A stretch of 52,996 nucleotides of DNA, filler included, from Sphacelaria rigidula (taxonomy: Eukaryota): assembly GCA_964200075.2 (NCBI GenBank). It is 2 parts of 2 records of this genome, joined end to end, with 100 filler letters (N's around TTAATTAATTAA, not from the genome) between each part and the next. Parts side by side here need not be neighbours in the genome. Positions count along the whole stretch, not along the records: positions 26,565 to 52,996 come from CAXNAA020000138.1; 1 more part is not named here. One strand, given 5' to 3'. The notes under the pieces were generated by a model. It was not told the origin of the DNA. It did not search any database and saw nothing but the letters and a program-made list of their open reading frames with translations. Shown piece by piece: positions 8,273 through 52,996 of this stretch (positions within the stretch are counted from its first letter, which is position 1; each line of letters begins with the position of its first letter). The translations under genes were made by a program, and so were the position numbers.

Positions 8273-8727
8273 TATACTCAATACTCAGTATTTTCGAAGA
8301 GTCACACTTTTGGTACTCAATTTTTGAGTAGAGTATTGAAGGAAGTACTCGATCTCCGCAAACTTGAGTAGAGTATTGAGGTCATGCTCAAGTGATTCTC
8401 TATACTCAGGTATAACTGAGAGTGCTTACTCAATATTTGAACAGAGTATTGGAGGTCGTGCTCGATCAACTCAAAAATTGAGTGGAGTATTTGAGGCCAT
8501 ACTCACCTATTCAAAAATTGAGTGTAGTATTTGAGGCCAAACTCGATCTACTCAAGAATTGAGTAGAGTATTGAGGTCATACCCAAGTGATACTCTATAC
8601 TCAAGTATTACTGAGAGTGCTTACTCATTATTTGAGTAGAGTGTTGGAGGCCGTACTCGATCTAGTAAAAAATTGAGTAGAGTACTTGAGGCCGTATTCG
8701 ACCTACTCGAAATTTGAGTAGAGTATT
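8273..8727. repeat. Minisatellite of ~40-bp palindromic units with ~195-bp higher-order period
   Basis: Recurrent tactcaa(a)aattgagtagagtattgagg. The longer variant unit begins at 8364 and again at 8559. Confidence 0.85.
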
Positions 8728-8730
8728 TAA

Positions 8731-9622
8731 CCCTTACACAGCGACCCCCCCGCTGGTAGACTGAGGTAGACACTCCACTTTTGGGGTTCAGAATCATTCC
8801 TTTGTCACAACTAAAACCGCCTACTCTACGGCGGAAGGGATCGGGAGTGCACAAGAGGCACGTAGTTGTGAGAGTCACAAGATGGACGGTGGTGTGATTG
8901 TCGACCACCTGATAATTACGCCGCATCTTTTTGCTGTGCAGTCTGTAGTGTATCGTGTCGCGGCTGCACGTGCGGTCTGCAGCATACTGGATCTTACAGT
9001 GTTGAACGTACCGAGTGTACGCAGCGTGCGTTTGGATATCGCACCATGACTACCGCCGCGAATACCCCTGACTACCGTAGAGCAATTGCTCGGCGATGGC
9101 GGTCGCCTCACCATCGAGGTACTTGTCTACATCTAAATACGTGCGTAGGATACTCGTGGTCGCCGCTCGCGTGTTGCGCCTTGACGTTTTATACCAGATG
9201 GAGGTGTGGAGTTAGTAGGACGATTAGGCAGTACTGAACACACAGACACATTGTACCGAAGATGCTCGAACACCTGCTTTTTGGTTATAAAATCTATGGT
9301 CGATTTGGTATGATCAAAATAATATTTGAGAGTAGACGGCGAAGGTGTCTACCAGCTGTCTACCTCTACCGGAACAAAAGTGCTCATTTTGACGACCGTG
9401 ATTGGTCAGAATGGTCACCCCACGCTCGGGCCTCGTGCACGGCTCATAATTTTCCGCGGGAAACTTCCACACACACATGGTTGACTGCGTGAGCTTCTCC
9501 GATGCTCCGCCGAGAGACACCTCCTCCCCTGAACCCTCCCCCCCCAAGCTCTGGAAACCCCCGGATGACTCGGGACTGCGAGCCTGTACAACTGTTCCGA
9601 GGCGACGCTCGTCGTCTAAGGG
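8731..9622 (+). mobile_element. piggyBac-like non-autonomous element
   Basis: TTAA at 8727-8730 and 9623-9626; ends ccctta.ac...gt.taaggg. Confidence 0.8.
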
Positions 9623-20512: not shown

Positions 20513-21956
20513 TACCGTACATTACTCAATATGTTCGCTGACGATATGTGGGATACGGCTGCTATTTTTTGCAACCAAGGACGCTCGGCAGGGAAAAACA
20601 ACGTAGAGCTGGCCCGGACCATGCACCCGCAGATACCTTCGCACGCCGGCGCGCATCTGCTGAACCTTTTCTCTCCGGTACCGACGCATGAACCGTGTCG
20701 CCACGGTGCGTCTCGGCGTTGTCGTAGAATATGGTGCAATATAGACCGAGTGTGCATCAAAGCAATGAGAGCAAAGATGGCAGCGGTGATGTTCTTGGTC
20801 TGAACCCACTGTCTAGTACCTGTTTCACTTCTGGTCTTCGCCGTGGCGGTATGTCTTTCGATATTCTCGAAGAAGAGCACGAATCTTCAACGAGTAGACG
20901 CAGTCGTTGTCTAAGTCGAACATTTCTGAAACTTCCACACAGGCCGCAGAGTGATCCTACGCACATTTCATTTCACCTCGGTAGGTATCCGCCGAGAGAT
21001 TTCAGGTCTTCCCACCGCTGGTTCGATCATACTCTGTCAGCACGTCTTTGCTGGTGTGATTCGGATGTCGGCTTCCATACAAACCTGAGTCTGTGTCATC
21101 GTTGTTCCCACGAAGTTTGCACCACAGATGGCAGCTGATTCTAAGTACTGTAGAGATTTACAAAATAATCGCAGTCACACCTGCGGTGAAATGATAAACA
21201 CGTCCCCTTTCGACTTGTACTGTCCGATGATCGACTATCGCTGTGAACCTTCTTCCAAGCCATGATTCGTTACGTGATTTTTTTCTGGTGCTGTTGACGT
21301 GGAAGAGTGACCGCCCCCCCCACCATGCGCGCTCGTTCAACGTGTATCCAAGTGTAGTGTACATGATACTGCACAGCTCTCGCTCACTGTGTTGACAATA
21401 TTGCCTGACTAATGATTTTGTTTATATTTTTAGCTAGCTTGTCCTTTCTGACTTGCAAACCCGGGCTTGTGTACTTCGGCATGTATAATGAATACACCAT
21501 GGCTTCAGATTTCTTTGTTATAGCTGGGCATGCTTTGACACTGGTATTTGTGGTCACATGTCTTCTGCGGCACGATCATCCTGCTATTGTACGATACGAG
21601 TGCTTTATTCGCTTCCGATTCCTGTTGAAATAGTGTAGAGGACGTCCCATTGGCTGGATTCATCTTGTGAGTAGTGCCGTAGTTGTTGGGATCAGCTTAC
21701 GTGAAGAGTCGTCTGCGTTGATTGCAGGCAGCTGCTTTTTCTCCGGAGTATGTGCCGCAACATATGCCATACGTTCCGCAAAGCGTCTCAACTCTCTTTC
21801 ACCCTTGGCTCACGGAATAGTTTCTGCCGTTTTGGATTCCGTGCTACCGTGAACAGTTTGCTTTCGAAGAATTACCACGCGAGCGAGCTCATGGCCTAAG
21901 TCGCGAGGAAAACGTACATCAGCCAGGGCTGCTCTGAGCCGCCATCTGACGGTTTA

Positions 21957-23993
21957 TTGGGTTTCAAGACGGAGTTTTGCTCCAAGCAGGCCAGGTCGGG
22001 AATGGTGCATGTGGTGAGAAGGAAGTGCCGTGATGAGGGCTGCCCTAAGCGGCCGTCGTACGGTGTAGCGGGAAGCAAAAAAGCGGAGTTCTGCTCCCAC
22101 CATGCTCGAGCGGGAATGGTGGATGTGGTGAACAAGAGGTGCGGCTATGATGGCTGCTCTACGCAACCGTCGTATGGTGCAGCGGGGAGCAAAGAGGCGC
22201 AGTTCTGCTCCAAGCATGCCACGGCGGACATGGTGGATGTAGTGAGCAAAAGGTGCGGCTACGAGGGGTGCTTCACACATCCATCGTATGGTGTAGCGGG
22301 GAGCAATAAGACGCAGTTCTGCGCCAAGCATGCCGCGGCAGGAATGGTGAATATGAGCAGGAGATGTGTTCACGACAGCTGCTCCACGCGGCCGTCGTAT
22401 GGTGCAGCGGGAAGCAAGACGGTGCAGTTCTGCGCCAAGCATGCCACGGTAGGAATGGTGAATTTGAGCAAGGGGTGCGGCTACGACGGCTGCTTCACGC
22501 AGCGGTCGTATGGTGTAGCGGGGAGCAAAAAGGCACAGTTCTGCTCCAAGCATGCCAGGGCGGGAATGGTGAATGTGAAGAATGGTAAGTGCGACGACGA
22601 GAGATGCTTCAAGCTCCCGTCGTATGGTGAAGCGGGAAGCACGAGGGCGAAGTTTTGTCACGAGCATGCTAGGGCGGGAATGGTGAATATGAGGAACAGT
22701 AAGTGCGCCGAGGAGGGATGCTCCTCCCGTCCCTCGCATGGTGTAGCGGGAAGCAAGAAGGCGAAGTTCTGCGTCAAGCATGCGTGGGCGGGAATGGTGC
22801 ATGTAGTGCACAGCGTGTGCGGTGACAACGGCTGCTCCAAGCTTCCCACGTATGGTGTGGCGGGGAGCAAAAAGGCGGATTTTTGTTATGAACATGCTAA
22901 GGCAGGAATGATGAATGTGAAGAGCAAGAAGTGCAGCGATGAGGGCTGCTCCACGCGTCCGTCGTTTGGTGTGGCCGATAGTAAAAAGGCAGAGTTTTGC
23001 TTCATGCATGCCAGGGCGGGAATGGTGAATGTAGTTGACAAGAGGTGCGGCGGCGAGGGCTGCTCGAAGCAGCCGTCGTATGGGGTAGCGGGAAGCAGAA
23101 AGGCCGAGTTCTGCTTCCACCATGCCAGGGCGGGAATGGTAAGTGTGCTGAAGAAGAAGTGCGGCCACGAGGGCTGCTCCATGCGGTCGTCGTATGGTGA
23201 AGAGGGAAGCAAGAATGCGGAGTTATGCTCTAAGCATGCCAAGGCGGGAATGGTTAATGTGGTGATCAGGAGGTGCAGTGAAGAGGGATGCTCCAAAGGG
23301 GCAATCGATAAGAAGGACAACGGTGGTGAGGCAAAATTTTGCCGACGGCATGCTGTTGCGCACAATACAGCTGCAGTGTCCGATGCCGCGAAGCTCAATT
23401 CTGGGAAAGACACTCCCAGCTGTAGCCCGACGGAGGGTGGTTGGAGAAGTGTTGCTGATATACGAGGAACGAAACGCAAGGGCGCGGCACTCTGGGGCTC
23501 TGCTACAAACGACGGCGCTGGTGCTCGCCGTAGCGTGTGTCCCGGTTCAAGGCAGGGTGTAAGAACACCGTTGCTCTTGGGACACCCACCTTCGAGGGCT
23601 GATGGCGAGGTGTCTTTGGTGACAAAAGCCGGGGCAGGAATGAAGGTAGAGCTGGCAGTCTCCTCTCCTGCACACGGTGATGTATCGTTTTGGGCAAAAA
23701 GAGGGGCGGGGATGACGATAGACCTCGCCGTCCCCTCCTCCACACACAGTAGCGATGGGGTGAGGGAGTGTCGCGAGCAGGTTGCCCCTCCGAGTGGTTG
23801 GAGAAGCGGTGGTGGTAGTCGCAGCTCCAACAGCGGTGATGGGAGTACGGGGCGGCTCTGTGGTTCGACGGCAGTGGTACCTGGACGCATGGACACGTGT
23901 GATACTGTAGACTGCGGAGAGGCAGGGGGGGTTTCGAACGTGAAGTTGGAGCTAGGCGTGTCTAGTTCTCCTCGGACGTTCGATAATTGGTAG
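21957..23993 (+). CDS. EsV-1-7 cysteine-rich repeat protein (about 12 repeats) with low-complexity C-terminal tail
   Basis: 678-codon ORF. Eleven 37-38-aa units C-x4-C-x3-PSYGxxGSKKAxF-C-x2-H-ARAGMV plus one divergent unit (22026-23351). Start uncertain: first in-frame ATG at 22002, in-frame TAA at 21897, and an upstream exon is possible. Confidence 0.92.
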   Translation: MGFKTEFCSKQARSGMVHVVRRKCRDEGCPKRPSYGVAGSKKAEFCSHHARAGMVDVVNKRCGYDGCSTQPSYGAAGSKEAQFCSKHATADMVDVVSKRCGYEGCFTHPSYGVAGSNKTQFCAKHAAAGMVNMSRRCVHDSCSTRPSYGAAGSKTVQFCAKHATVGMVNLSKGCGYDGCFTQRSYGVAGSKKAQFCSKHARAGMVNVKNGKCDDERCFKLPSYGEAGSTRAKFCHEHARAGMVNMRNSKCAEEGCSSRPSHGVAGSKKAKFCVKHAWAGMVHVVHSVCGDNGCSKLPTYGVAGSKKADFCYEHAKAGMMNVKSKKCSDEGCSTRPSFGVADSKKAEFCFMHARAGMVNVVDKRCGGEGCSKQPSYGVAGSRKAEFCFHHARAGMVSVLKKKCGHEGCSMRSSYGEEGSKNAELCSKHAKAGMVNVVIRRCSEEGCSKGAIDKKDNGGEAKFCRRHAVAHNTAAVSDAAKLNSGKDTPSCSPTEGGWRSVADIRGTKRKGAALWGSATNDGAGARRSVCPGSRQGVRTPLLLGHPPSRADGEVSLVTKAGAGMKVELAVSSPAHGDVSFWAKRGAGMTIDLAVPSSTHSSDGVRECREQVAPPSGWRSGGGSRSSNSGDGSTGRLCGSTAVVPGRMDTCDTVDCGEAGGVSNVKLELGVSSSPRTFDNW

Positions 23994-27464: not shown

Positions 27465-27813
27465 TACCTCGTGTCGCTCAAAAACCGACGCACTTGAGCC
27501 AAATTCTTGCTCACCATGCAGTAAGTACGTTTCATACATATTACAATATATATGCGGCGGATTTTAGATGTGATAGGTGTGATCTTCCTTATGCCTTGAA
27601 GTAAATATTGCTTTCACGGAGTGGATTCAGGAACGAAATGTGACAGCTGATCGTGCAAGCAGCTGTAAGATGAGACAAATTGATGCTTGCTTTATACACC
27701 ACATCACTGTTGACGCTGAGATGAAATGATTCTCTACCCCGCTTTGCTATGTTCTTCGATGCCATAGCTGCTGTACGCCCGATTTCTGCTGTGTAATGCA
27801 GCTGAAAGGATTG

Positions 27814-28249
27814 TGTGACGCTGACTGGTCAGTAGTCTAGTTGGTTGTCTCTTAAACCGTCACAAAAGTTAGTCGCTAGTTCGATTTGCGTCGGACGCAC
27901 TTTCTTTGAAGAAAAAAGATGAGAGAAAACCTCTGATAAAAAATTGGCCCCAACGAGAGAAACCTCCGTAACAAATTGGCCCAAAAGAAAAAAGGGTGGG
28001 GTATAGCCTGGTGGCTATATTTGGAGTTGGCTGCTAAGGATCCCAGTACACACACTCTGGGAACGAGTGGGGGAGACGAGAAACTCTCGGGTACGGTGAG
28101 AGTGACACATTAGAGGTCCTGATGGCAGTCAATAGAGCGCTGGCAAGGGGAGTCGCCCTCCTCGGAGTGAAAGTGACGGGGACTGGACCCCCACGACTAA
28201 CTTTTGTGACGGTTTGAGAGACAACTAACTAGACTACTGACCAGTCACA
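27814..28249 (-). mobile_element. tRNA-derived TIR element (TGT...ACA), copy with shortened outer arms
   Basis: ~55-bp inverted repeats tgactggtcagtagtctagtt.gttgtctct.aaaccgtcacaaaagttagtcg at both ends; body matches 47167-47631 in the opposite orientation. Confidence 0.85.
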
Positions 28250-28721
28250 AGCGACGCTACGCTGCCTCACACGTTAATCTTGCGGTTTACTGCTGTATTC
28301 GCCACATGAGGTCGAACTACTGTGCCTATTTCACATCCCCCGTTTACTCATGCCAGCTGGGCTTGGTGTTGTTCACCCCGCGCCTGCGCAATGATGCCCC
28401 TGCAGCTTCACAACGCTGCCGTGTGATGGGTAAATATGATCTTAAAAAGGATGGCTATTAGATTAACGACATGCGTTGTTGTTGTATGTTGTATCTTTCA
28501 ACCCCCGAAAGCACATGACGACCTGTCTGTGGCGAATAACTTGCTTTTACTTGGGATGTCAACTGCAGGCGGGTTGAATCAGGTGTTACCACTCACGCAG
28601 CTACTACTGTAGGCTATGATTTCGCCGTGTGATGAGACAACGCCATGCTTTCTTTATAGCCGTGACAGGTCAGATCTTTCGCATACAGCAATAAAAAAGT
28701 CGGAGCGATTACTCTTTACAC

Positions 28722-28889
28722 TGTAGACCTAGCCACCATTGTTACTTAAGGTCAGGAACTTTGTAGGTGGAGTTGCGGGTCTGATTGCCGGACTCTGTGA
28801 TGGTGACCTCCATGACGAGTAGAGCCGGTTTTGCTTCTCTGGTGGAGGGAGGCTATGGTCCTGTTCTCCTGTAGTGACAGAAGTCTACA
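28722..28889 (+). mobile_element. Solo LTR with internal deletion
   Basis: TGtagac...gtctaCA with perfect 4-bp TSD acac (28718-28721, 28890-28893); homologous to 52656-52914. Confidence 0.9.
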
Positions 28890-31929: not shown

Positions 31930-34900
31930 TGACACCATATTTGGCCTTCAGACACTCCCGTTTCTGCTTATTCAGTCTCAACTTCCGCAGTTCAGACCGT
32001 ACAAACTGCGGCGCTCCTCCCCAAATAACATCCAACGGCTCCCATTAACACTCGTCCTCGTCAAAACCTACCCATTCCACACGTACATCGTAGCCATCTC
32101 CTTCGTGAGCCTCAGATATCCCGGCGATGGCCCCCATCTCAAAGTCTCCGTGAGCATAGGCATGCTGGAACACCTCCTTCAGATCCGCGGTGACCTCCAG
32201 TTCGTTGTCCGCATAGTACCGAAGACGGGCGACATGCGCATCCTTTACCTCGCCATTCACGATATTCTGAATCTCGTAGACATGTTTTTCCTCCACTGCC
32301 ACGATTCTCCAAGGCCCTGTCAACGTAACGTACTTACGAGTTTCGGCGTTGTTCCTGAGCGCCTAACCCGCGCAGCCAACACATGATCACCCACCATGAA
32401 ATTTGGCAACTGTCTCACACTAGCAACACGTCGTTGCATTTCACGAGTCTTCTCAATACGCTGCGCCACCTCCTTGTGCAGCTCTTGCTGCGCCTCCACG
32501 ACTGATTCCATCTTCTCCCGCAGCATATCCTCATCCAGCACACCAAGTCGCCATTCGCCGCCGGTCGACGATGGCAGGGATGAAAAACTTGTTCGCGGCG
32601 CCCGTCAAACATCACATGGTATGGCGCACTGGTGTAGCGCTCGCAGAATAACGTGTTCAATACCCACTGTAAGGCAGCCATCAGTCCCACCCAGTCACGA
32701 ATGTCGCGCCTCTCTTCTTGCAGTATGGGCTTCAAAGTACGGACAACCTCTCGTATCATCCTTTCACACGTACCATTTGACGATGTCGAGTTTGGAACCG
32801 CGAACCTCCTGTCCAGCTTCAGTGCCTTCTCCAGTGCTCGCATCACACGGTTCTTGAAATGCGACGCGGTTCCACTAACCCAGACCTCCGGTGGACCGAA
32901 CGCCTTGCACCACGCCACCAGATGCTGCACCGTCGCTGCAGCTGTACAAGACTCGGTGAGCTCAAAGCACGCGAAATTGCACAGATCATCCTCCAGGCCG
33001 CTCTCGCCCACCGGATCACGTTGGACAACGTACAGATAATCAAAATGCATCACGTCACGGGGCCGTGTGCCGTGCAGTGTCTCCCCTAGTGGCCGCGGGA
33101 CCGTCTCACCCGCTTTCGAGTCCACATAATGCAAGCATTTCCTCACACAATCTGTCACATGAGCTTCCATCCGAAACCAACAGCAGTACTCTTACAGCCG
33201 GTGCAGTGTCGCCACAACACCCCGATGGCCCGCCTCCTTCATGTGAGCACACACCATCATCCAGCGTGTTTGCAGCTCTTTTGCTTGCGGCGGGATCCAC
33301 AACATATTCCACCCTGCTGCATGCACGCAAAATAAACCCTCCCTGTCTTTCGCAACTCGCCCAACAGCTGCTGCAAAAGTTGGGGCTCCAGCAACCATCA
33401 CTCCGAACCCGGCTCGAGCCTGCTCTTGGGCCTCACGAATAGCGTTCTTCGACGGCAGCGTTTCATCAGGCTGATCGCTTGCAAACACGGCCGCAGCACG
33501 CACAGACACCGCCGGGACGTTAACCCACCTTGACAAGAAGTTTTCCAAGCAGTTGCGCTCATCAGCAATATGCCTGATGAAGTAATCCCACTGCCCGAGC
33601 ACAGCCTGCTATTGCTCGAGCCTCTGGGCAGCAGTCTTAGACACGGATGCAACGCACGCCTCGGGATTAAAAACGTATGCTAGGTTACGATGATCGGTGA
33701 TGATATGTACCCCACCCCATTGAAGATACTACCCAACCTACGGAAAGTACTCACGATTACATTTGTCGCTTTCACCGTATCCTAGAGTTACTCGTCTCCC
33801 CCATTCATTCCAAGAGTGTGCACTGGGGTCCTTGGCGGTACACTCCAAATAAACCCCACCCTTTTTTTTTTTGGGCCAATTTTTTACAAAGGTTTTCTCT
33901 CCCTGGGGCCAATTTTTTATCAGAGGTTTTCTCTCCTCTTTTTCTTCAAAGAAAGAGCGTCCGACGGGAATCGAACCAACTAGACTACTGACCAGTCAGC
34001 GCTGACTGGTCAGTAGTCTAGTTGGTTATCGCTTGAAACACCACATGCATCAGCCGCCAACAGCATCTGGTAGTAACCCTGCAGCATATCAATCGTGCCA
34101 AAACACGCAGCGCCTAGCAGGTCGATCATCTCCGCCTCGTTGCTATGCATAACATTCGGACCCTTCTCAATCTGCTTTTTTACCGCGCGATAGTTACTCA
34201 CCAGTCGATAATTGCCCTTCTTCGGCCTCGCCATGGCCGTACTCGTCCACACTGCCTGTAAGCTGCGAAATACTAGCCCAAGCGCCACCAGTGTCGCCAT
34301 ACACCCTGCTAACCACGCGGCCTTTACAGGGCAATAATACACCTGCGGGCTCGCCTTGACTGCTCTAGCCCCAGGTTTGAATTTCACCCTCAATGGCTCT
34401 CTCTCTACACGAGCAGGCGAATAATAGCGCAATGCTCACCGAAAAGCGGTGACACGTCGCCCAGTGACCTCCCGACGCTTATCAACGCCGCTCGTCGATA
34501 TCCCCTTGTCCGCAGCCGCCTGTACTACATGATCCGATGAAACACGAACCTCTGCCAGCTCCTCCTCTTGAGTCATGTTCATCTCGGCACAACGCGACAT
34601 CAATCGCTCAACGGAGGGATCCACAGGCTCCTCTTGCCCACCTGGATCTTGTAACGCCTCAATCGCAATGCTCATGCGCCTACATTCTCGGAATTCAGGC
34701 GCATCTACACCTCTCACCAACGCGTGTCTTCAGCGTGCGCATGCGTCCAGCCACTGTACACGTCAATGCCCATGGCCTCCAGCGTACCGCTCTCGATGAT
34801 CACCACATCATCAGCACCTGGCATGACCGCATAATGACACGGATCCAGCACCACCGGCCCCCAGCTGGTGTGCAGAGCGGTGCGCACTAGGCACGTCTTT

Positions 34901-35361: not shown

Positions 35362-38300
35362 TGTAGAGTAGTCCACCTCCGGTACACGTACGTGCAGGTT
35401 CATGATGATCTACAAATGGAACAATCCGCTGTAGGCGTTTTCTATTGGTTGACGGGCTTGCGGGTCTGATCGGCAGATTATGTGGATTTGAACATCACAT
35501 GCTTCACGCATGCGCTTACTTCCGATAACGAAGGCTGTATGTTTATGAATAACAACTGTCTTGAAGTCTCCAGGCCCTGGTGAGGGAGGAAGCCCTTGGA
35601 GCAATCTTGTGACCTTGTTCTGAGTCCGGGACGGCTCTATAATAAACGTTTATTAAGAGGAAACCGCTAGTTTCTGAAAGAAGTTTGTCAGCTGTGGACA
35701 GCTGGGAAAAATTATATCAAAATTTGAACACAGTAGAGTGCACACTGTATTGTGAGGGAGCTCGCTGGCAACGGAGAGACGGCTAGGTTGGCTGGAACTG
35801 ATGCGTGCAGCTATTGAAACGCGCAAGAAAGTGGATGATGGTGATGCAGGCGAAGAGGTGAAGTTTAAGTTTACTGAGCTTATGCCTGCAGGATCGCTGA
35901 AAGCCCTAGAGGACGGACGGCATTTTAGCGAAAATGCGTCCCGACGTTTTTATCTGAAATACGTCGAGTATGAAGAGGCGATCAAAATGAACAACAAAGG
36001 ACGTAGCATGCAGGCCATCTTACTGACGGTTACTGAACTGGTGCCGAGGCACATACGTGCGTGTTTGTCACGCGAGTTTTGACGGATCTGTGCTTGACGA
36101 AGACGATCTCAAGGAGGCACTGGGCCGACACGCGAAGTGTTGGGAGGATGAAGAGATTGATCCTTCAGTTGCTGCTGCTGGTGTGCGGAAAGCGTTGGCT
36201 GCTCGCAACGAGCAAACTGCAGTAGGAAGAGTAGAAGGGCAGTGGGGTGCCCTGGAGGAATTTTTTGCGGAGAATACTAGCGCTGAGCGTGCGTTCCGCG
36301 ATGATGCAGATTTCAAACCGGGACCCGCTCAAATCATAACTTGGGAAATGTTGAATGGACCGACCCCCCCTGAATTCAAAAGTAAAGTCCTCAATATGTT
36401 GAACATGAATGGGGGGTGGAAGGAGGACCCTGGGCTTGTGTTTAACACGGCTCGGGAAGCAGCGGAAGCATGGAAGACGGTGGAAGCGCCGTCAGCAGCC
36501 GCAGCTGAAACAAAGGAGTGGCAGCGGGACCTCCGGATCCGAGCGCGAACCGAATGGTGGAAAAACGGCGACCGCTGGCAGTGAGACACCAGTTCCAGGA
36601 AATCTCGGGAACCAGGTCCAAGCTATGCACGTTGTTTCTCATGTGGAGACAAGGGCGACTTCGTGAAGAAGGATTGTAAGCAGCAAAGCCAAGCTGCTGC
36701 TCCGATACTACAGGTGGGTAATCGAAGGCCGGCGACAAGCAGCAGCAACAACAGCAGCTGTCGCAGAACCCTGGACAGGTGCCTCGCGGAGGGGGCACGA
36801 GTCCCGCCCCTACAAGGGCTGTCTTTTCAGCCGATGGACAAAGTGCTGCCAGCGGGGGGGCGACGTTGCCACCAGAACCGATCGTTTTTACTGGTGGCGT
36901 GCAGCAGACCATCTCATCGCACTCGTTCCCGGGTTCGAACTCTGCGGCGGTGCCAGCAAGGAAATCGCTCAAAGCGGGTGAGATGTCAGGTTTTCAATCT
37001 AAGGGTCTGCAAGTAGATCACAAGGAAAGGTGGTGTCTTGCCGACTTGTCTGTCCCGAGTGCCGGAGCAAAGGGTGTTTGTCCGGTCAAGGCCATTTCAG
37101 ACTCGGGATCTGGAATTCCGACCATGTCAGTGGGTGTAGCGGTGAAATTACAAGCTATGGCTCCAGATGTTCGAGTGTTTACACCGATGGTCGATGAACG
37201 GCAATGTTGAGCGTGTGAAGCAGAAAACTTGCGCTGTCCGCATCGCTTTACACACCAGCTTGGGACCGGTTGTGCTGGACCCATGTTCATATGCAGTCAT
37301 GCCAGGTACAGATGGTGTGGTCATCATGGGGAGCCCTACGCTGGAGGCGCTGGGCATTGACGTGTACAGTAGCTTGGGTGCCTCTGCACGTGCAAGAAAC
37401 ACTTCGGTGCGAGGTGTAAACACGCCTGATTTTACGGACTGTCGGCGTGTCAGTACCACGGGTGACGCTTTACAGCAACCAGGAGGCCGGGTGGAGCCCG
37501 TTTATTCCTCAGTCAAGCGGTTGTTGTCGAGAAGTCCGGCGATGAGCACATCCCCGGAACAAGAGCTTGCTGAGCTTGATGTTGCGCCGGAGGAGGCAGT
37601 ACAAGCCGCCGCGGATAACGGCATATCGGAGAGCGACGTGAGCCAGATTCGTGAACCTGTACGGAACAGAGCGAGCATTTTTAGATGAGTGCTGCATGGT
37701 TATCGGCCTGCTCGCGTCGAGCCCTGGAGGGTGAAATTCAAACCTGCTGCTGTGGAGGCAAAGGCTCGGCCGAGGGCATACTTTCCGGTCAGGATGGCGT
37801 GGTTGGCACGCTTCATCGCAACATTGGTGGCGCTCGGGCTCGTGTACTGCAGTTTGCAGGTAGAGTGGGCGAGAGCGGCGATTGCAACGCCCGAGAAGTC
37901 CTGTTTTCGCTGGATGAATGCATACAAGGCGGGGGAGGGAGTTTCCCGTCACCACAAGGAGGTCCGCTGGGGGATAATGGCTTGGACAAAGGAGATCGGT
38001 TCAAGTATATATTGGTAAAGATGGATGACCCGGTCGACTTCGTGCGGTTGGGGCCCGCGGAGTCGTGTACGGCAGCAACGACGGTGAAGCATCTGTTAAC
38101 ATGGTGCGAAGCGCTGGGGCCGCAGGAGGGATGGGTCAGAGATGCGGTATCGCAATATGAGAATCGTGTGGTGAGAGTGCTCAAGAAGGCGCTGATGGAT
38201 CGCAGATTCGTGGTGGCCAATTCGCGGTCGTCACATCGTGAATGTGAGCGAATGGTGCGTGACATTGTTCGTACCTTGAAGGTCATAATGCAGAGAGAAA

Positions 38301-39820
38301 CACTCGATGCCAACGCCTGGGTGGGTTTGGTACCTGCCGTGTAGTGGGCATTGCACACTGGTTTTCGGGACAGCTGTGAGAGCTGTAGCTGTATCTATGA
38401 TGCGAGGAGCCTGTTGGAGTGGAAATGCTACTCTACGGTGTGGACGAGATTGTAGCCGGAGAGCTGCTGTTTCTCAGGAGGAGCGCAGGAGAATTACAAG
38501 TCAGGCATTGCCTGAGGTGCTGGATGTTGCGGTGAGCGCCGGGTTGGGTGATGTTAAGGAGCATGTACTAGTGGAATTTCTTGTTGAGAATGAGGAAGCA
38601 CATTGTGACCTGTATACCTGAATCGTTTTGAGGACGATTGTAGGTGGTGGTGATGTGGTTCCTGGACTTGTCTGTTGTGTTGAGCTGGTTGGCACGCATG
38701 ATACATGGTGGTTTCTACGAAGAAGCTGCTGAGTGAAATATGAGCATGCAGGTGTGACTGATGTGCATGGTGTCTGATAAAGAGTCAGAGTGAGGCAGTT
38801 TCCAATACACTGCTGTGTGCTGAATGAAATACAGCTCGTATATTATTGTTCGCGCCAAAAGTGGAATCATCTTTGTGCGGTTTGCAAAAACTGGCTGTAG
38901 GAGATGGTGATTGCTGCTGCTGGCGTGAAAATGAGCGGAAACTACGAAATGCGTATGCTTGTATGTGAACAAGTATAACGTGAGTATTTCCAGAGGTAAA
39001 CGATGAACGAAATCGTACGCGGATACAGTGATCTTTTACTGTGGTACATCTTTGATGGCTTGTCATGTGTTTGGATAAGCGCATAGATGGTGTTTCGCTC
39101 TGAAAAACGGAGAATGTGGATGGTGTGCCTATTTTTCTGGAAGGAGCACCGCCTATTTGTTCTAAGCTGCGTCAGTAAGAACTGAGTCAAACGGTGCGGG
39201 CACGGTTGTAGGCAAAGTACGGTATCAAGCTTTGAGTGCATGGTATGATCGAATGCTATGGTTTGAAATGGTATTTTCCTCGGCGCGTTTGCTTTGTGTG
39301 AGCATGCCACGACTGGAAATTGTCGTTGGGTGAATTATTGACTTCACTAAATTCGATTGAGACGCTGTGTTCAAGTGTCGTTATTCAGCGTTTTGCGAAT
39401 GATCATTTTCTTTGTGAACATGACATAGCATGGTCATGTGTCACCAACAGGCGGACAAAGGTAGCATGAACGTGTTTGTCGGTGTCTATTGTTTGTCAAA
39501 CTCACTTCCTACTTCGAGCAGTGCGGAGTTTTGGGGGTGCTGTAGAGTAGTCCACCTCCAGTACACGTACGTGCAGGTTCATGATGATCTACAAATAGAA
39601 CAATCTGCTGTAGGCGTTTTCTATTGGTTGACGGACTTGCGGGTCTGATCGGCAGACTATGTGGATTTGAACATCACATGCTTCACGCATGTGCTTACTT
39701 CCGATAACGAAGGCTGTATGTTTATGAATAACAACTGTCTTGAAGTCTCCAGGCCCTGGTGAGGGAGGAAGCCCTAGGAGTAATCTTGTGACCTTGTTCT
39801 GAGTCCAGGACGGCTCTATA
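35362..39820 (+). mobile_element. Internally deleted Ty3/Gypsy LTR retrotransposon with both LTRs
   Basis: 280-bp LTRs at 35362-35641 and 39541-39820; I count 9 substitutions, 8 of them transitions. Termini TGtagag...ctcTA-TA. TSD imperfect (cccc/ttcc). Confidence 0.95.
35801..38370 (+). pseudogene. Frameshifted gag-pol remnant
   Basis: gag with degenerate knuckle CFSCGDKGDFVKKDC (~36633); protease AISDSGSG (~37091); RT N-terminus 37690-37930 joined directly to integrase core (KYILVKMDD...ECERMVRDIVRTLK). YxDD and RNase H are absent. Confidence 0.9.
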
Positions 39821-42827: not shown

Positions 42828-44623
42828 GCAAAAATTCGCACATGCCTGCCAAAATACCACTCAGCGTATGAAAATCCGAACATGCCTGCCAATATTTCAC
42901 TCGTCACATGCAATGCCACCTTCCTCGCAGCAAACACCATGCAACGTCCGTGACAACCAGATCAGCACAACACACACATGCCAAATACCCACATGTACGC
43001 CAGAGTTTCACTCTGCACACGCGATACGATCATACTCGCTCGACAACCATGTTTCATGCGCAAAGATGACCACAAACCACACAATAACAAGCTGCAATCA
43101 TTCTCAAAACGATTCGCGAATACCAGTCATGATGTGTTTCCTCATTCTCAACAAGCACTCAATCACCTCAGCACTTGCTCCTCAACATCAGCACCCAACT
43201 CGGCGTACACCACAACAGCAAACACCTCAGGAAATGCCTTCTTTGTAGTCCTCCAGCTCGCTCCTGAGAAACAGTAGCACTCGAACCACAACCCCGTGCA
43301 CAGCGTAGAGCAGCGCTTCCTCTCGGATACCCCCTTCTTTTACCTTTAGTCTTGCTACACTTGGCACCCCCATGGTGTAGCTCAACACACCGCTCAAAGG
43401 TACATTCGCACTGCGAAACCTATGCGACAGATCCTCCGCCTCCACAGCTGCTTTGGCAGTACTGAACACCTGTGCTTCAGTCAGTTTCACAAAGGAAACC
43501 AGAGACGAAACGGGAACAGCTACACAGTCCCGAACAGCAACACCTCCTGATGGCACACTCTCCTCCTCAAACACCCCGCGGCGCAACAGTGGAGACACCG
43601 CCGCCATCGCCGCCAAATACACCAAACCTGTCCATGCATACAGCAGTGCACACGACCACCCCAACACCATGCCACGCTCGTCGTCGTCGTCGGAATTATG
43701 ATCGCTGACAGCATCACGAGCTTGCAGGTCGCTCTGCATACCCACTTCACGCGGGTCACACGCCCCTGTTGTCTCGATCATGCAAGGCGTGTCCACAGCT
43801 ACGCGCTAGTCCGGCGGCAATTCCGCCAACCCGGCATCCACCTGTCCTTCAAGCAGACACCCCTGCGAATCATCTGAACGATGTTCCGCCCTGTCACTGG
43901 CGCGGATAGATTCACCGGCATGAGGTCAGAAACTGCTGCCACCTCATAGAGGTTTGTCCACCGCGCGTTCACCTGTTCTACATCTCGAAAATATTGCTCA
44001 CATTTGCGTAAAAACTGGGCAGATTTCTCTCCCGAAAACTTGCGGCCGTAGTCCGGCATCTCCAGCGCCAGTACAGGAACAACACGACCATCGACGATGG
44101 CATATTCCTGCGCCTCGTACATTTCGGTCAGCAGTACAGTACTCCACACGCCTTCTTGAAAAACAAAGTCGCCTCCCACTCACAGGAACAACAACTCTCT
44201 CCTTACACCGAGACGCGCTGTACCACCTTACAACGACAACGGCCACAGCACCTCTTCCTCACGCAGGTCTCACCACGTGTTTGACGTCCTTAGACTCCTC
44301 TTCCTGGCCGTACCTGGCCAAGCGTGGAACAAGCAACGCTCGCTGGCTTCACTAGGCAGTGATTTCGCCGCTTTCCTGGAACGCGCACGGGCTCGCCAGC
44401 TGTCAGTCAACCCCCCGCACCTCTCGCACGAGCGATACCGCAGCCCAACCTAGCACTGCCTCAGAACCTCCTCGGCTCTACTCCTCCAACTGCTCGCGAC
44501 GTTAACACGCCTTGAGCTGGTCTCGTTTGCTGCAAACTGATCAGGCCTACAGGCTTCCCTATCTTGAAATGTCAGCTGCTTTACAGCGAAACTACCGCCT
44601 CAGCGGACTCAGTGAACGTTCAT
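42828..44623 (-). mobile_element. Internal region of a non-autonomous LTR element (gag N-terminus, no pol), copy A
   Basis: MPDYGRKFSGEKSAQFLRKCEQY...VSDLMP resembles gag at 35890-36050; collinear with copy B. Confidence 0.8.
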
Positions 44624-44882
44624 TATAGACTTCTGTCACTCATATCAGATCGCCATGTGGACTCCTCCCATGACGGGCACATGGACTTCAGCAGCTTTGC
44701 TTATTTATGTAGTAACCCTCAGCATAGTACAGGAGAACAGGACCATAGCCTCTCTCCACCAGAGTAGCAAAACCGGGCCTACTCGTCATGGAGATCACCC
44801 ATCACAGAGTCCGGCAATAAGACCCGCGACTCCACCTACAAATGCCCCTAACATCAGGTGACAATGATGGCTAGAGTCTATA
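44624..44882 (-). mobile_element. 259-bp LTR between copies A and B
   Basis: tatagac...gtctata; reverse complement of 52656-52914. Confidence 0.9.
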
Positions 44883-52295: not shown

Positions 52296-52419
52296 CGCCT
52301 GCCAGATGAATGCGCGGTGAACAAACCGTTTTGAGGTGACAGCAGTTTCTCACCTCATGCCAAAACATATTGCGAGATGTCGGTGTTACACGTTCTTGGG
52401 GCATGATTATGACGTTGTG

Positions 52420-52655
52420 TATAGACTTCTGTCACTCAAGATCAGATCGCCATGTGGACTCCTCCCATCTCGAGCACATGGACTTCAGCGGCTTTAGTTA
52501 TTCATATATTAACCCTCAGAATAGTATAGGAGAACAGGACCATAGCCTCTCTCAACCAGTGTAGCAAAGCCAAGCCTCACGTCATAGAGGTCAAGCATCA
52601 CAGGGTCTGGCAATCAGACCCGCAACTCCACCTACAATATCCCTAACCTTAGGTA
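52420..52655 (-). mobile_element. Older LTR copy, truncated at its U3 tip by the next element
   Basis: Collinear with 44624-44860. Confidence 0.85.
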
Positions 52656-52996
52656 TGTAGACTCTAGCCACCATTGTTACCTGAGGTTGGGGACGTATGT
52701 AGGTGGAGTTTTGGGTCGGATTGCCGGACTCTGTGATGGGTGACGTCCTTGACGAAAGAGCCTGGTTTTGCTACTCTGGTGGAGAGAGGCTATGGTCCTG
52801 TTTTCCTATACTATGCTGAGGGTTACTACATAAATAAGCAAAGCTGCTGAAGTCCCTGTGCCCGTCATGGGAGGAGTCCACATGGCGATCTGATATGAGT
52901 GACAGAAGTCTATAATGAACGTTCATTAAGTCCGCTGAGGCGGTAGGTACGCTGTAAAGCAGCTGACATTTCAAGATAGGGACGCCTGCAGGCCTG
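52656..52996 (+). mobile_element. 5' LTR (52656-52914) and leader of an element running off the window
   Basis: 259-bp LTR TGtagac...gtcTA-TA; leader is the reverse complement of 44542-44623. Confidence 0.9.

What the first reader, a model, noticed from the sequence alone, without database searches (positions are those of the whole stretch)
35640..35655. Covarying 16-bp palindrome instead of a tRNA primer-binding site in two LTR families
Seen: after the 5' LTR there is no TGG-type PBS. Instead TAAT[A]AACGTT[T]ATTA overlaps the LTR end here, TAAT[G]AACGTT[C]ATTA does so at 52913-52928 in a family with a different LTR, and a decayed version sits at 44610-44625. The A-T to G-C swap is compensatory. 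LTR ends not followed by internal sequence (39820, 28889, 52420) lack it. Established: Tf1-group Gypsy elements prime without tRNA by pairing the PBS with the transcript 5' end, and palindromes drive retroviral dimer initiation. Inference: a distinct tRNA-independent priming route (hairpin or intermolecular duplex cleaved to yield a 3'-OH at the U5 edge), or a dimerisation signal occupying the PBS position.
Basis: partly seen in the sequence, partly recalled or inferred. Interest (0 to 1): 0.75.

Follow-up and report, generated by a model that had tools for sequence, protein, structure and literature searches.

The report
Palindrome replaces retrotransposon primer site
A wide group of jumping genes, including those in this alga-like genome, has a short self-pairing sequence exactly where such elements normally dock a borrowed tRNA to start copying themselves, which suggests that one copy of the element's RNA primes the other.

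Summary
Real, and wider than reported. The conserved unit is the last A of the 5' LTR, a 10- or 12-nt self-complementary core and a T; 16 nt occurs only where the LTR ends TA. In copies chosen by gag or RT similarity, 114 of 125 5' junctions keep it against 3 of 55 other LTR ends, and 0 of 125 have TGG. Related Gypsy (chromovirus-type) families in this genome change its letters only in mirrored pairs, centre included, and change its length, while its left edge stays on the LTR's last base; 5 of 6 metagenomic relatives with an independently fixed LTR end do the same, the sixth has TGG. Pairing with tRNA, own LTR or spliced LTR is at chance. Best reading: two genomic RNAs pair through the palindrome and one is cut to prime the other (about 0.5; inferred, no RNA-end data). 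Precedent: the fungal GalEa Copia palindrome (PMC5445492). This scan reported the same idea before on other DNA (e1-7622518). New variant of tRNA-free priming.

The parts
35362..35641 (+). 5' LTR of a decayed Gypsy element (family A1), TG...TA ends
   Evidence: 271 of 280 letters identical to the 3' LTR
35641..35654 (+). Conserved palindromic unit: LTR terminal A + 12-nt core + T, at the primer-binding-site position (16 nt, 35640-35655, in this copy)
35801..37210 (+). Broken gag-like frame with a zinc-knuckle-like motif, followed by an aspartic protease region
   Evidence: three-frame translation; protease families hit in the sister copy L036
37210..39529 (+). Broken and internally deleted pol region (most of RT and RNase H missing, integrase remnants)
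   Evidence: no Pfam hit in the window frames; sister copies show RT-RH-IN order
39530..39540 (+). Polypurine-tract position, same motif in families A, B and C
39541..39820 (+). 3' LTR, followed by flank without palindrome; no clean 4-bp target duplication in this copy
44610..44625 (-). Decayed palindrome of a family B copy; its LTR runs from 44624 to about 44880
52656..52914 (+). 5' LTR of a family B copy
52914..52927 (+). Family B palindromic unit (16 nt, 52913-52928, in this copy)
52420..52655 (-). Family B LTR whose end is followed by flank, no palindrome (internal control)
28722..28889 (+). Internally deleted family B LTR ending CA, no palindrome (internal control)

Best explanation
The palindrome is the primer-binding site of a tRNA-free, chromovirus-type Gypsy group. 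In the particle the two packaged genomic RNAs pair antiparallel over the whole palindrome. One strand is cut at the right edge of that duplex, most likely by the element's RNase H as in Tf1, which leaves a 3'-OH sitting at the U5 edge of the other, uncut RNA; minus-strand synthesis starts there. Plus-strand strong-stop DNA then copies the primer, and because the primer is the palindrome itself the site is rebuilt in mirror image, so any sequence works as long as it is symmetric and starts at the LTR end. Shown: position, symmetry, covariation, absence of other partners. Inferred: the RNA dimer, the cut, the enzyme, the priming.
For: 114 of 125 5' junctions with at least 5 of 7 (or 5 of 6) mirrored pairs against 3 of 55 other LTR ends, TGG in 0 of 125. 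Among four 12-nt cores all 10 letter differences from core A fall in 5 mirrored complementary pairs (chance product about 7e-7 under independent change); family C has a symmetric 2-nt shorter core. In all 11 families or elements of the palindromic type with an LTR end fixed by a 3' LTR or terminal inverted repeat, the perfect palindrome (10-16 nt) begins at the last LTR base (10) or one before (1), against a background start rate of 0.0016. Six different central 4-mers, all self-complementary. Isolated hairpin 0 to -0.9 kcal/mol, self-duplex -4.4 to -16.5 over 17 junctions (a palindrome pairs with itself by construction). tRNA, LTR and spliced-LTR pairing at chance. Two head-to-head LTR-palindrome-inverted-LTR junctions centred on the palindrome are what copying past such a primer would give. 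RNase H cleavage of an RNA duplex makes the Tf1 primer (PMC7175516, passage).
Against: No RNA or cDNA ends were seen. All copies here are decayed, so within-family variation is mostly neutral and the number of independent paired changes in this genome is small (four events). The model needs something to stop plus-strand copying at the far edge of the palindrome and to leave one RNA uncut; neither is identified. The predicted excess of mirror-image variants was not significant (11 against 4, p = 0.12). The head-to-head junctions are only 2, found in family B alone (0 in family A); one has identical arms at a contig end and may be an assembly artefact, and DNA fold-back repair explains both equally. 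In +/-30 nt context many monomers fold a stem-loop with the palindrome at its tip. One locus in the TGG clade (L268) has a 10-nt palindrome after CA at an unproven LTR end.
Confidence: 0.5

Rival explanations
1. Fold-back priming in cis: one RNA is cut just 3' of the palindrome, the end folds back as a hairpin and primes on its own U5; the second RNA supplies the intact template, and copying of the hairpin primer rebuilds the palindrome.
For: Same anchoring at the LTR end; extended U5-leader stem-loops with the palindrome at the tip are predicted for several families; copying the primer could keep the loop symmetric without selection; head-to-head junctions.
Against: 10-nt versions leave a 3-bp stem and isolated hairpins are 0 to -0.9 kcal/mol; the flanking stems are not conserved between families.
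Confidence: 0.17
2. The palindrome is a dimer-initiation or packaging signal that sits at the old PBS position; priming uses another, unseen route.
For: Full-length symmetry including the centre is what intermolecular pairing needs; palindromes serve retroviral dimer initiation (PMC5445492 discussion).
Against: The left edge is fixed on the LTR's last base over lengths of 10 to 16 nt, which a dimer signal does not need; it would cover the place where any other primer must bind; retroviral signals exist beside a PBS, in a loop.
Confidence: 0.15
3. An unidentified host RNA (tRNA fragment or other small RNA) is the primer and the symmetry is incidental.
For: Half-tRNA priming exists (PMC6317226 passages). 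In subfamily A1 eight letters overlapping the right arm match the anticodon arm of host tRNA-Lys(CTT). The tRNA set tested is incomplete (59 genes).
Against: That match starts 10 nt from the LTR end and is lost in A2, A3, A4, C and D. Best tRNA pairing 5-7 nt, shuffled mean 6.2-6.7; tRNA 3' ends 1-2 nt. Many different symmetric sequences would need as many symmetric primers.
Confidence: 0.06
4. The symmetry works at DNA level (plus-strand transfer, end processing or a cruciform), not in RNA priming.
For: A palindrome reads the same on both DNA strands; head-to-head junctions can come from DNA fold-back.
Against: Leaves minus-strand priming unexplained; sequence and length vary freely, unlike a protein-binding site.
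Confidence: 0.08
5. Tf1-type self-priming by the transcript 5' end inside the LTR, with or without splicing.
For: The elements are chromovirus-like, the group that holds Tf1/sushi and Tcn1 self-primers.
Against: Longest exact LTR complement 4-6 nt in 11 of 11 (three metagenomic LTRs only partly held), below the 10-nt criterion of PMC6317226; best spliced junction 4-6 nt.
Confidence: 0.03

Closest known systems
Conserved Hairpin Site of fungal GalEa Ty1/copia elements (PMC5445492; passages and first part of the discussion read)
   Same: No tRNA PBS; a short sequence right after the 5' LTR that is palindromic when the LTR's final A is included; paired changes at mirrored positions; proposed to replace the PBS, mechanism unknown.
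   Different: GalEa is Copia, these are Gypsy. GalEa has a second complementary 9-mer 12-41 nt downstream; none here (3-5 mismatches of 9 in 11 of 11). Length here varies from 10 to 16 nt and the centre varies freely.
Tf1/Tf2/Tj1 and the Tf1/sushi and Tcn1 self-priming chromoviruses (PMC7175516, PMC4600332, PMC6317226; passages)
   Same: Gypsy with chromodomain-type integrase tail; the element's own RNA as primer; RNase H cut of an RNA duplex as the likely source of the 3'-OH.
   Different: [quoted passage not shown]
Dictyostelid Skipper and SM-Tcn1 chromoviruses with unexplained priming (PMC5006619, PMC2864245; passages)
   Same: Chromoviruses with neither tRNA PBS nor LTR complement.
   Different: They carry polypyrimidine or T-rich tracts, not palindromes.
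Cryptococcus Tcn2-5 (only a review sentence seen: proposed novel priming, PMC7175516)
   Same: Gypsy elements proposed to prime by an unknown route.
   Different: Unknown: the original paper is not held, so it may already describe this palindrome.
Retroviral dimer initiation site (as described in PMC5445492)
   Same: Palindrome that can join two genomic RNAs.
   Different: Sits in a hairpin loop in addition to a tRNA PBS, not at the LTR edge in its place.

Membership tests
Ty3/Gypsy LTR retrotransposon | pol order PR-RT-RH-IN | tested here: met
   sister copies L081, L092, L088, L099; the window copy itself is deleted and broken
Ty3/Gypsy LTR retrotransposon | Direct LTRs, PPT, target-site duplication | tested here: met
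   exact 4-bp duplication in 8 of 17 two-LTR copies, 3 of 4 letters in 4 more; not clean in the window copy
Chromovirus | Chromodomain at the integrase C-terminus | tested here: inconclusive
   L092 tail aligns to the Pfam Chromo region of relative P0020 (27%, E 7e-16); Chromo hit in 2 of 4 relatives but not in L092 itself
Chromovirus | RT groups with named chromovirus clades | not tested
   no named reference elements were available; tree holds unnamed sequences only
tRNA-primed LTR elements | TGG-type PBS complementary to a tRNA 3' end | tested here: not met
   TGG in 0 of 125; 1-2 nt pairing with 59 tRNA genes plus CCA
Half-tRNA-primed elements (copia, Osser, Bianca, FunCo1) | PBS complementary to an internal tRNA region next to the LTR | tested here: not met
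   5-7 nt, chance level, incomplete tRNA set; tRNA-Lys 8-mer only in A1 and 10 nt off
Tf1/sushi self-priming | At least 10 nt of the 5' LTR complementary to the PBS | tested here: not met
   4-6 nt in 11 of 11
Tf1/sushi self-priming | RNase H cleavage of an RNA duplex yields the primer | not testable with these tools
   only contigs, no read ends
GalEa Conserved Hairpin Site | Palindrome that includes the final A of the 5' LTR | tested here: met
   11 of 11
GalEa Conserved Hairpin Site | Second complementary 9-mer 12-41 nt downstream | tested here: not met
   3-5 mismatches of 9 in 11 of 11
GalEa Conserved Hairpin Site | Ty1/copia GalEa clade | tested here: not met
   Gypsy domain order

The most novel reading that the evidence does not exclude
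A third general way to start reverse transcription, beside tRNA priming and Tf1-type cis self-priming: in a deep, taxonomically wide part of the Gypsy tree the two packaged RNAs prime each other through a palindrome whose only rules are symmetry and register, dimerisation and priming are one step, and the same solution arose independently in fungal GalEa Copia elements, which would explain their unexplained hairpin site.
Probability: 0.4. Interest if true: 0.85.

Novelty: new variant of a known kind. Interest (0 to 1): 0.7.

Why it matters
Priming is the one step at which LTR retroelements depend on a host RNA, and at which tRNA fragments can block them. A primer site that needs only symmetry would free a large group from host tRNA and tie priming to genome dimerisation. 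It gives a testable model for elements listed as having no detectable PBS (6% in the plant survey PMC6317226; GalEa; possibly Tcn2-5), and a simple annotation rule: a palindrome starting at the LTR's last A marks the 5' LTR in elements that tRNA-based LTR finders miss.

Tried and rejected
tRNA-Lys(CTT) half as primer: 8-nt match in A1 only, 10 nt from the LTR end, lost in other subfamilies. Tf1-type and spliced-LTR primers: chance level. GalEa-type second repeat: absent. Mirror-variant excess: 11 against 4, not significant. Link between TA-ending LTRs and the letters after the core: no consistent relation. Rfam on 6 junction loci: only miRNA-precursor models on the long inverted repeat of L276, all below gathering score; no ribozyme. 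Sequencing runs: no RNA holder listed; laying 4 of the 7 listed runs gave contigs only, which cannot show ends or strand. Scans without result: metagenomes with the narrow alignment, viral contigs twice. Gag search in the protein database: 1 unnamed hit; cluster look-up gave no taxon names. Metagenomic palindromes dropped: L243 (not at the LTR end), L264, L268, L274 (LTR end unproven). Head-to-head junction search in family A: 2 matches, neither a junction by its letters. The careful tree did not finish; the quick tree is used. A second set of 20 divergent-RT loci from this genome was not obtained, so further families there are unexamined.

Full report
Observation. The first follows a 280-bp LTR (35362-35641) that matches a 3' LTR at 39541-39820 in 271 of 280 letters. 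LTR ends followed by flank lack it. The pattern occurs at 67 places in the 244-Mb own genome against 1 for the reversed control; all 15 places fetched follow an LTR end of one of the two families.

The element. Sister copies encode protease, RT (WVDD motif), RNase H and integrase in Gypsy order. The integrase tail aligns to the chromodomain region of a relative. Target duplications are 4 bp, exact in 8 of 17 two-LTR copies. Family B copies with both LTRs are short, about 3.1 to 4.2 kb between LTR starts, and look non-autonomous.

Unbiased sample. To avoid selecting for the palindrome I took loci by protein similarity: 70 of 150 gag A hits, 50 of 150 gag B hits, 20 of 150 RT hits. These held 180 LTR ends, split by leader similarity outside the palindrome into 125 5' junctions and 55 others. 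At least 5 of 7 (or 5 of 6) mirrored pairs: 114 of 125 against 3 of 55; perfect: 53 of 125 against 1 of 55; TGG within the first 7 letters: 0 of 125. Five of the 55 (L073, L141, L158, L168, L174) are by position 5' junctions that missed the leader cut-off, so the contrast is conservative. The commonest cores after the LTR are ATAAACGTTTAT (A1 18 of 41, A3 13 of 25), GTAAACGTTTAC (A4 4 of 8), ATGAACGTTCAT (B 20 of 38), ATATCTAGATAT (D 5 of 7) and ATATCGATAT (C 3 of 6), each followed mostly by T. So the unit is terminal A + core + T; the 16-nt form is in 38 of 125. All differences among the 12-nt cores fall in mirrored complementary pairs (1, 1 and 3 pairs; rough chance product 7e-7), and C is shorter by a symmetric 2 nt.

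Beyond this genome. A protein search found many full-length relatives at about 30-41% identity; an alignment of 20 of them retrieved 80 metagenomic loci. By my reading the 5' LTR end could be fixed without the palindrome in 6 of the 80. Five carry a perfect 10-12-nt palindrome starting at the last LTR base (L205, L217, L240, L245, L275); one has a TGG site (L260). For L217 the 3' LTR differs in its last letters, and for L205 and L240 the end rests on the terminal inverted repeat. Seven more show CA or TA plus palindrome upstream of gag without a 3' LTR to prove the end (L197, L199, L201, L208, L248, L254, L258), and six more a TGG site by motif only (L229, L236, L244, L247, L251, L252). In a quick RT-RH tree (75 of 91 sequences; 16 too short or without a hit; SH-aLRT only, unrooted) all TGG elements lie inside one branch (support 98) that holds no confirmed palindromic element; palindromic ones lie in two supported groups (100 and 98) and two loose rows. 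A single origin is possible but not shown. L268, in the TGG branch, has a 10-nt palindrome after CA at an unproven LTR end.

Partners tested. Against 59 host tRNA genes (nuclear and organellar, not all isotypes) the site pairs over 5-7 nt, shuffled mean 6.2-6.7; with 3' CCA ends 1-2 nt; with its own LTR 4-6 nt; with any GT-AG spliced LTR junction 4-6 nt; with itself 12-15 nt (six families). With G-U pairs the picture is the same. No GalEa-type second repeat exists.

Mechanism. Two rules hold in 11 of 11 cases with fixed LTR ends: perfect symmetry, and a left edge on the last LTR base (one base before in A1), background 0.0016 per position. The centre takes six different 4-mers, all self-complementary. 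A hairpin loop would not need that; an antiparallel duplex of two RNAs does. Isolated hairpins are 0 to -0.9 kcal/mol, self-duplexes -4.4 to -16.5. In such a duplex the right edge of one strand lies on the U5 edge of the other, which is where a primer 3' end must be. I infer a cut there, by RNase H as in Tf1 (PMC7175516), and rebuilding of the site by plus-strand copying of the primer. Two loci show LTR, palindrome, inverted LTR end. In L284 the arms share private variants, differ by several percent, and the inverted arm covers LTR positions about 110-253; L285 has identical arms at a contig end and may be an artefact. They fit primer run-through and equally DNA fold-back repair. Open problems: what stops plus-strand copying, and what keeps one RNA uncut. 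Confidence 0.5; cis fold-back 0.17; dimer signal only 0.15.

Literature. Nine paper searches that ran (listings only) showed no description of a palindromic primer site in Gypsy elements. The library lacks most subscription journals, the Tcn2-5 paper is not held, and no supplements were read, though those of PMC5445492 and PMC6317226 list junction sequences that may bear on this. Seen as passages: PMC5445492 (also part 1 of 2 of its discussion), PMC6934838, PMC5371799, PMC6317226, PMC5006619, PMC4600332, PMC2806351, PMC7175516, PMC2864245. The closest precedent is the GalEa site, palindromic with the LTR's final A and unexplained.

Verdict. Real feature; new variant of tRNA-free priming; mechanism inferred. 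Interest 0.7.

Noticed in passing
G000:C10818:4767-4798 (L284) and G000:C24191:5748-5779 (L285): Head-to-head family B junctions: LTR, palindrome core, inverted LTR end, centred exactly on the palindrome.
   Followed up: partly
window 35362-35641, 39541-39820; families A1, A4, B, D: Non-canonical TG...TA LTR ends are common (A1 35 of 41, B 15 of 38, D 4 of 7, A3 0 of 25) and often the same in both LTRs of a copy, so integration seems to accept TA.
   Followed up: partly
window 52412-52914: Two family B LTRs back to back in inverted orientation at their U3 ends.
   Followed up: no
window 33974-34027: Perfect 54-nt palindrome whose arm resembles the start of an abundant tRNA-like repeat seen; copies at 27800-28250.
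   Followed up: no
own genome: 631 matches to a tRNA A-box/B-box pattern, most of the 100 listed from one or two tRNA-like (SINE-like) repeat families, many near contig ends.
   Followed up: no
window 21900-23993: 697-codon frame of 114-nt repeats, EsV-1-7 cysteine-rich motif, 12 matched stretches.
   Followed up: no
L236, L244, L252, L260: Metagenomic Gypsy elements whose TGG site lies 5-9 nt after the apparent LTR end, a longer spacer than usual.
   Followed up: no
window 8314-8740: Array of about 41-nt degenerate repeats.
   Followed up: no
L085:5495-8281: A second, distant Gypsy lineage (YLDD RT) in the own genome; its LTR junction was not located.
   Followed up: no
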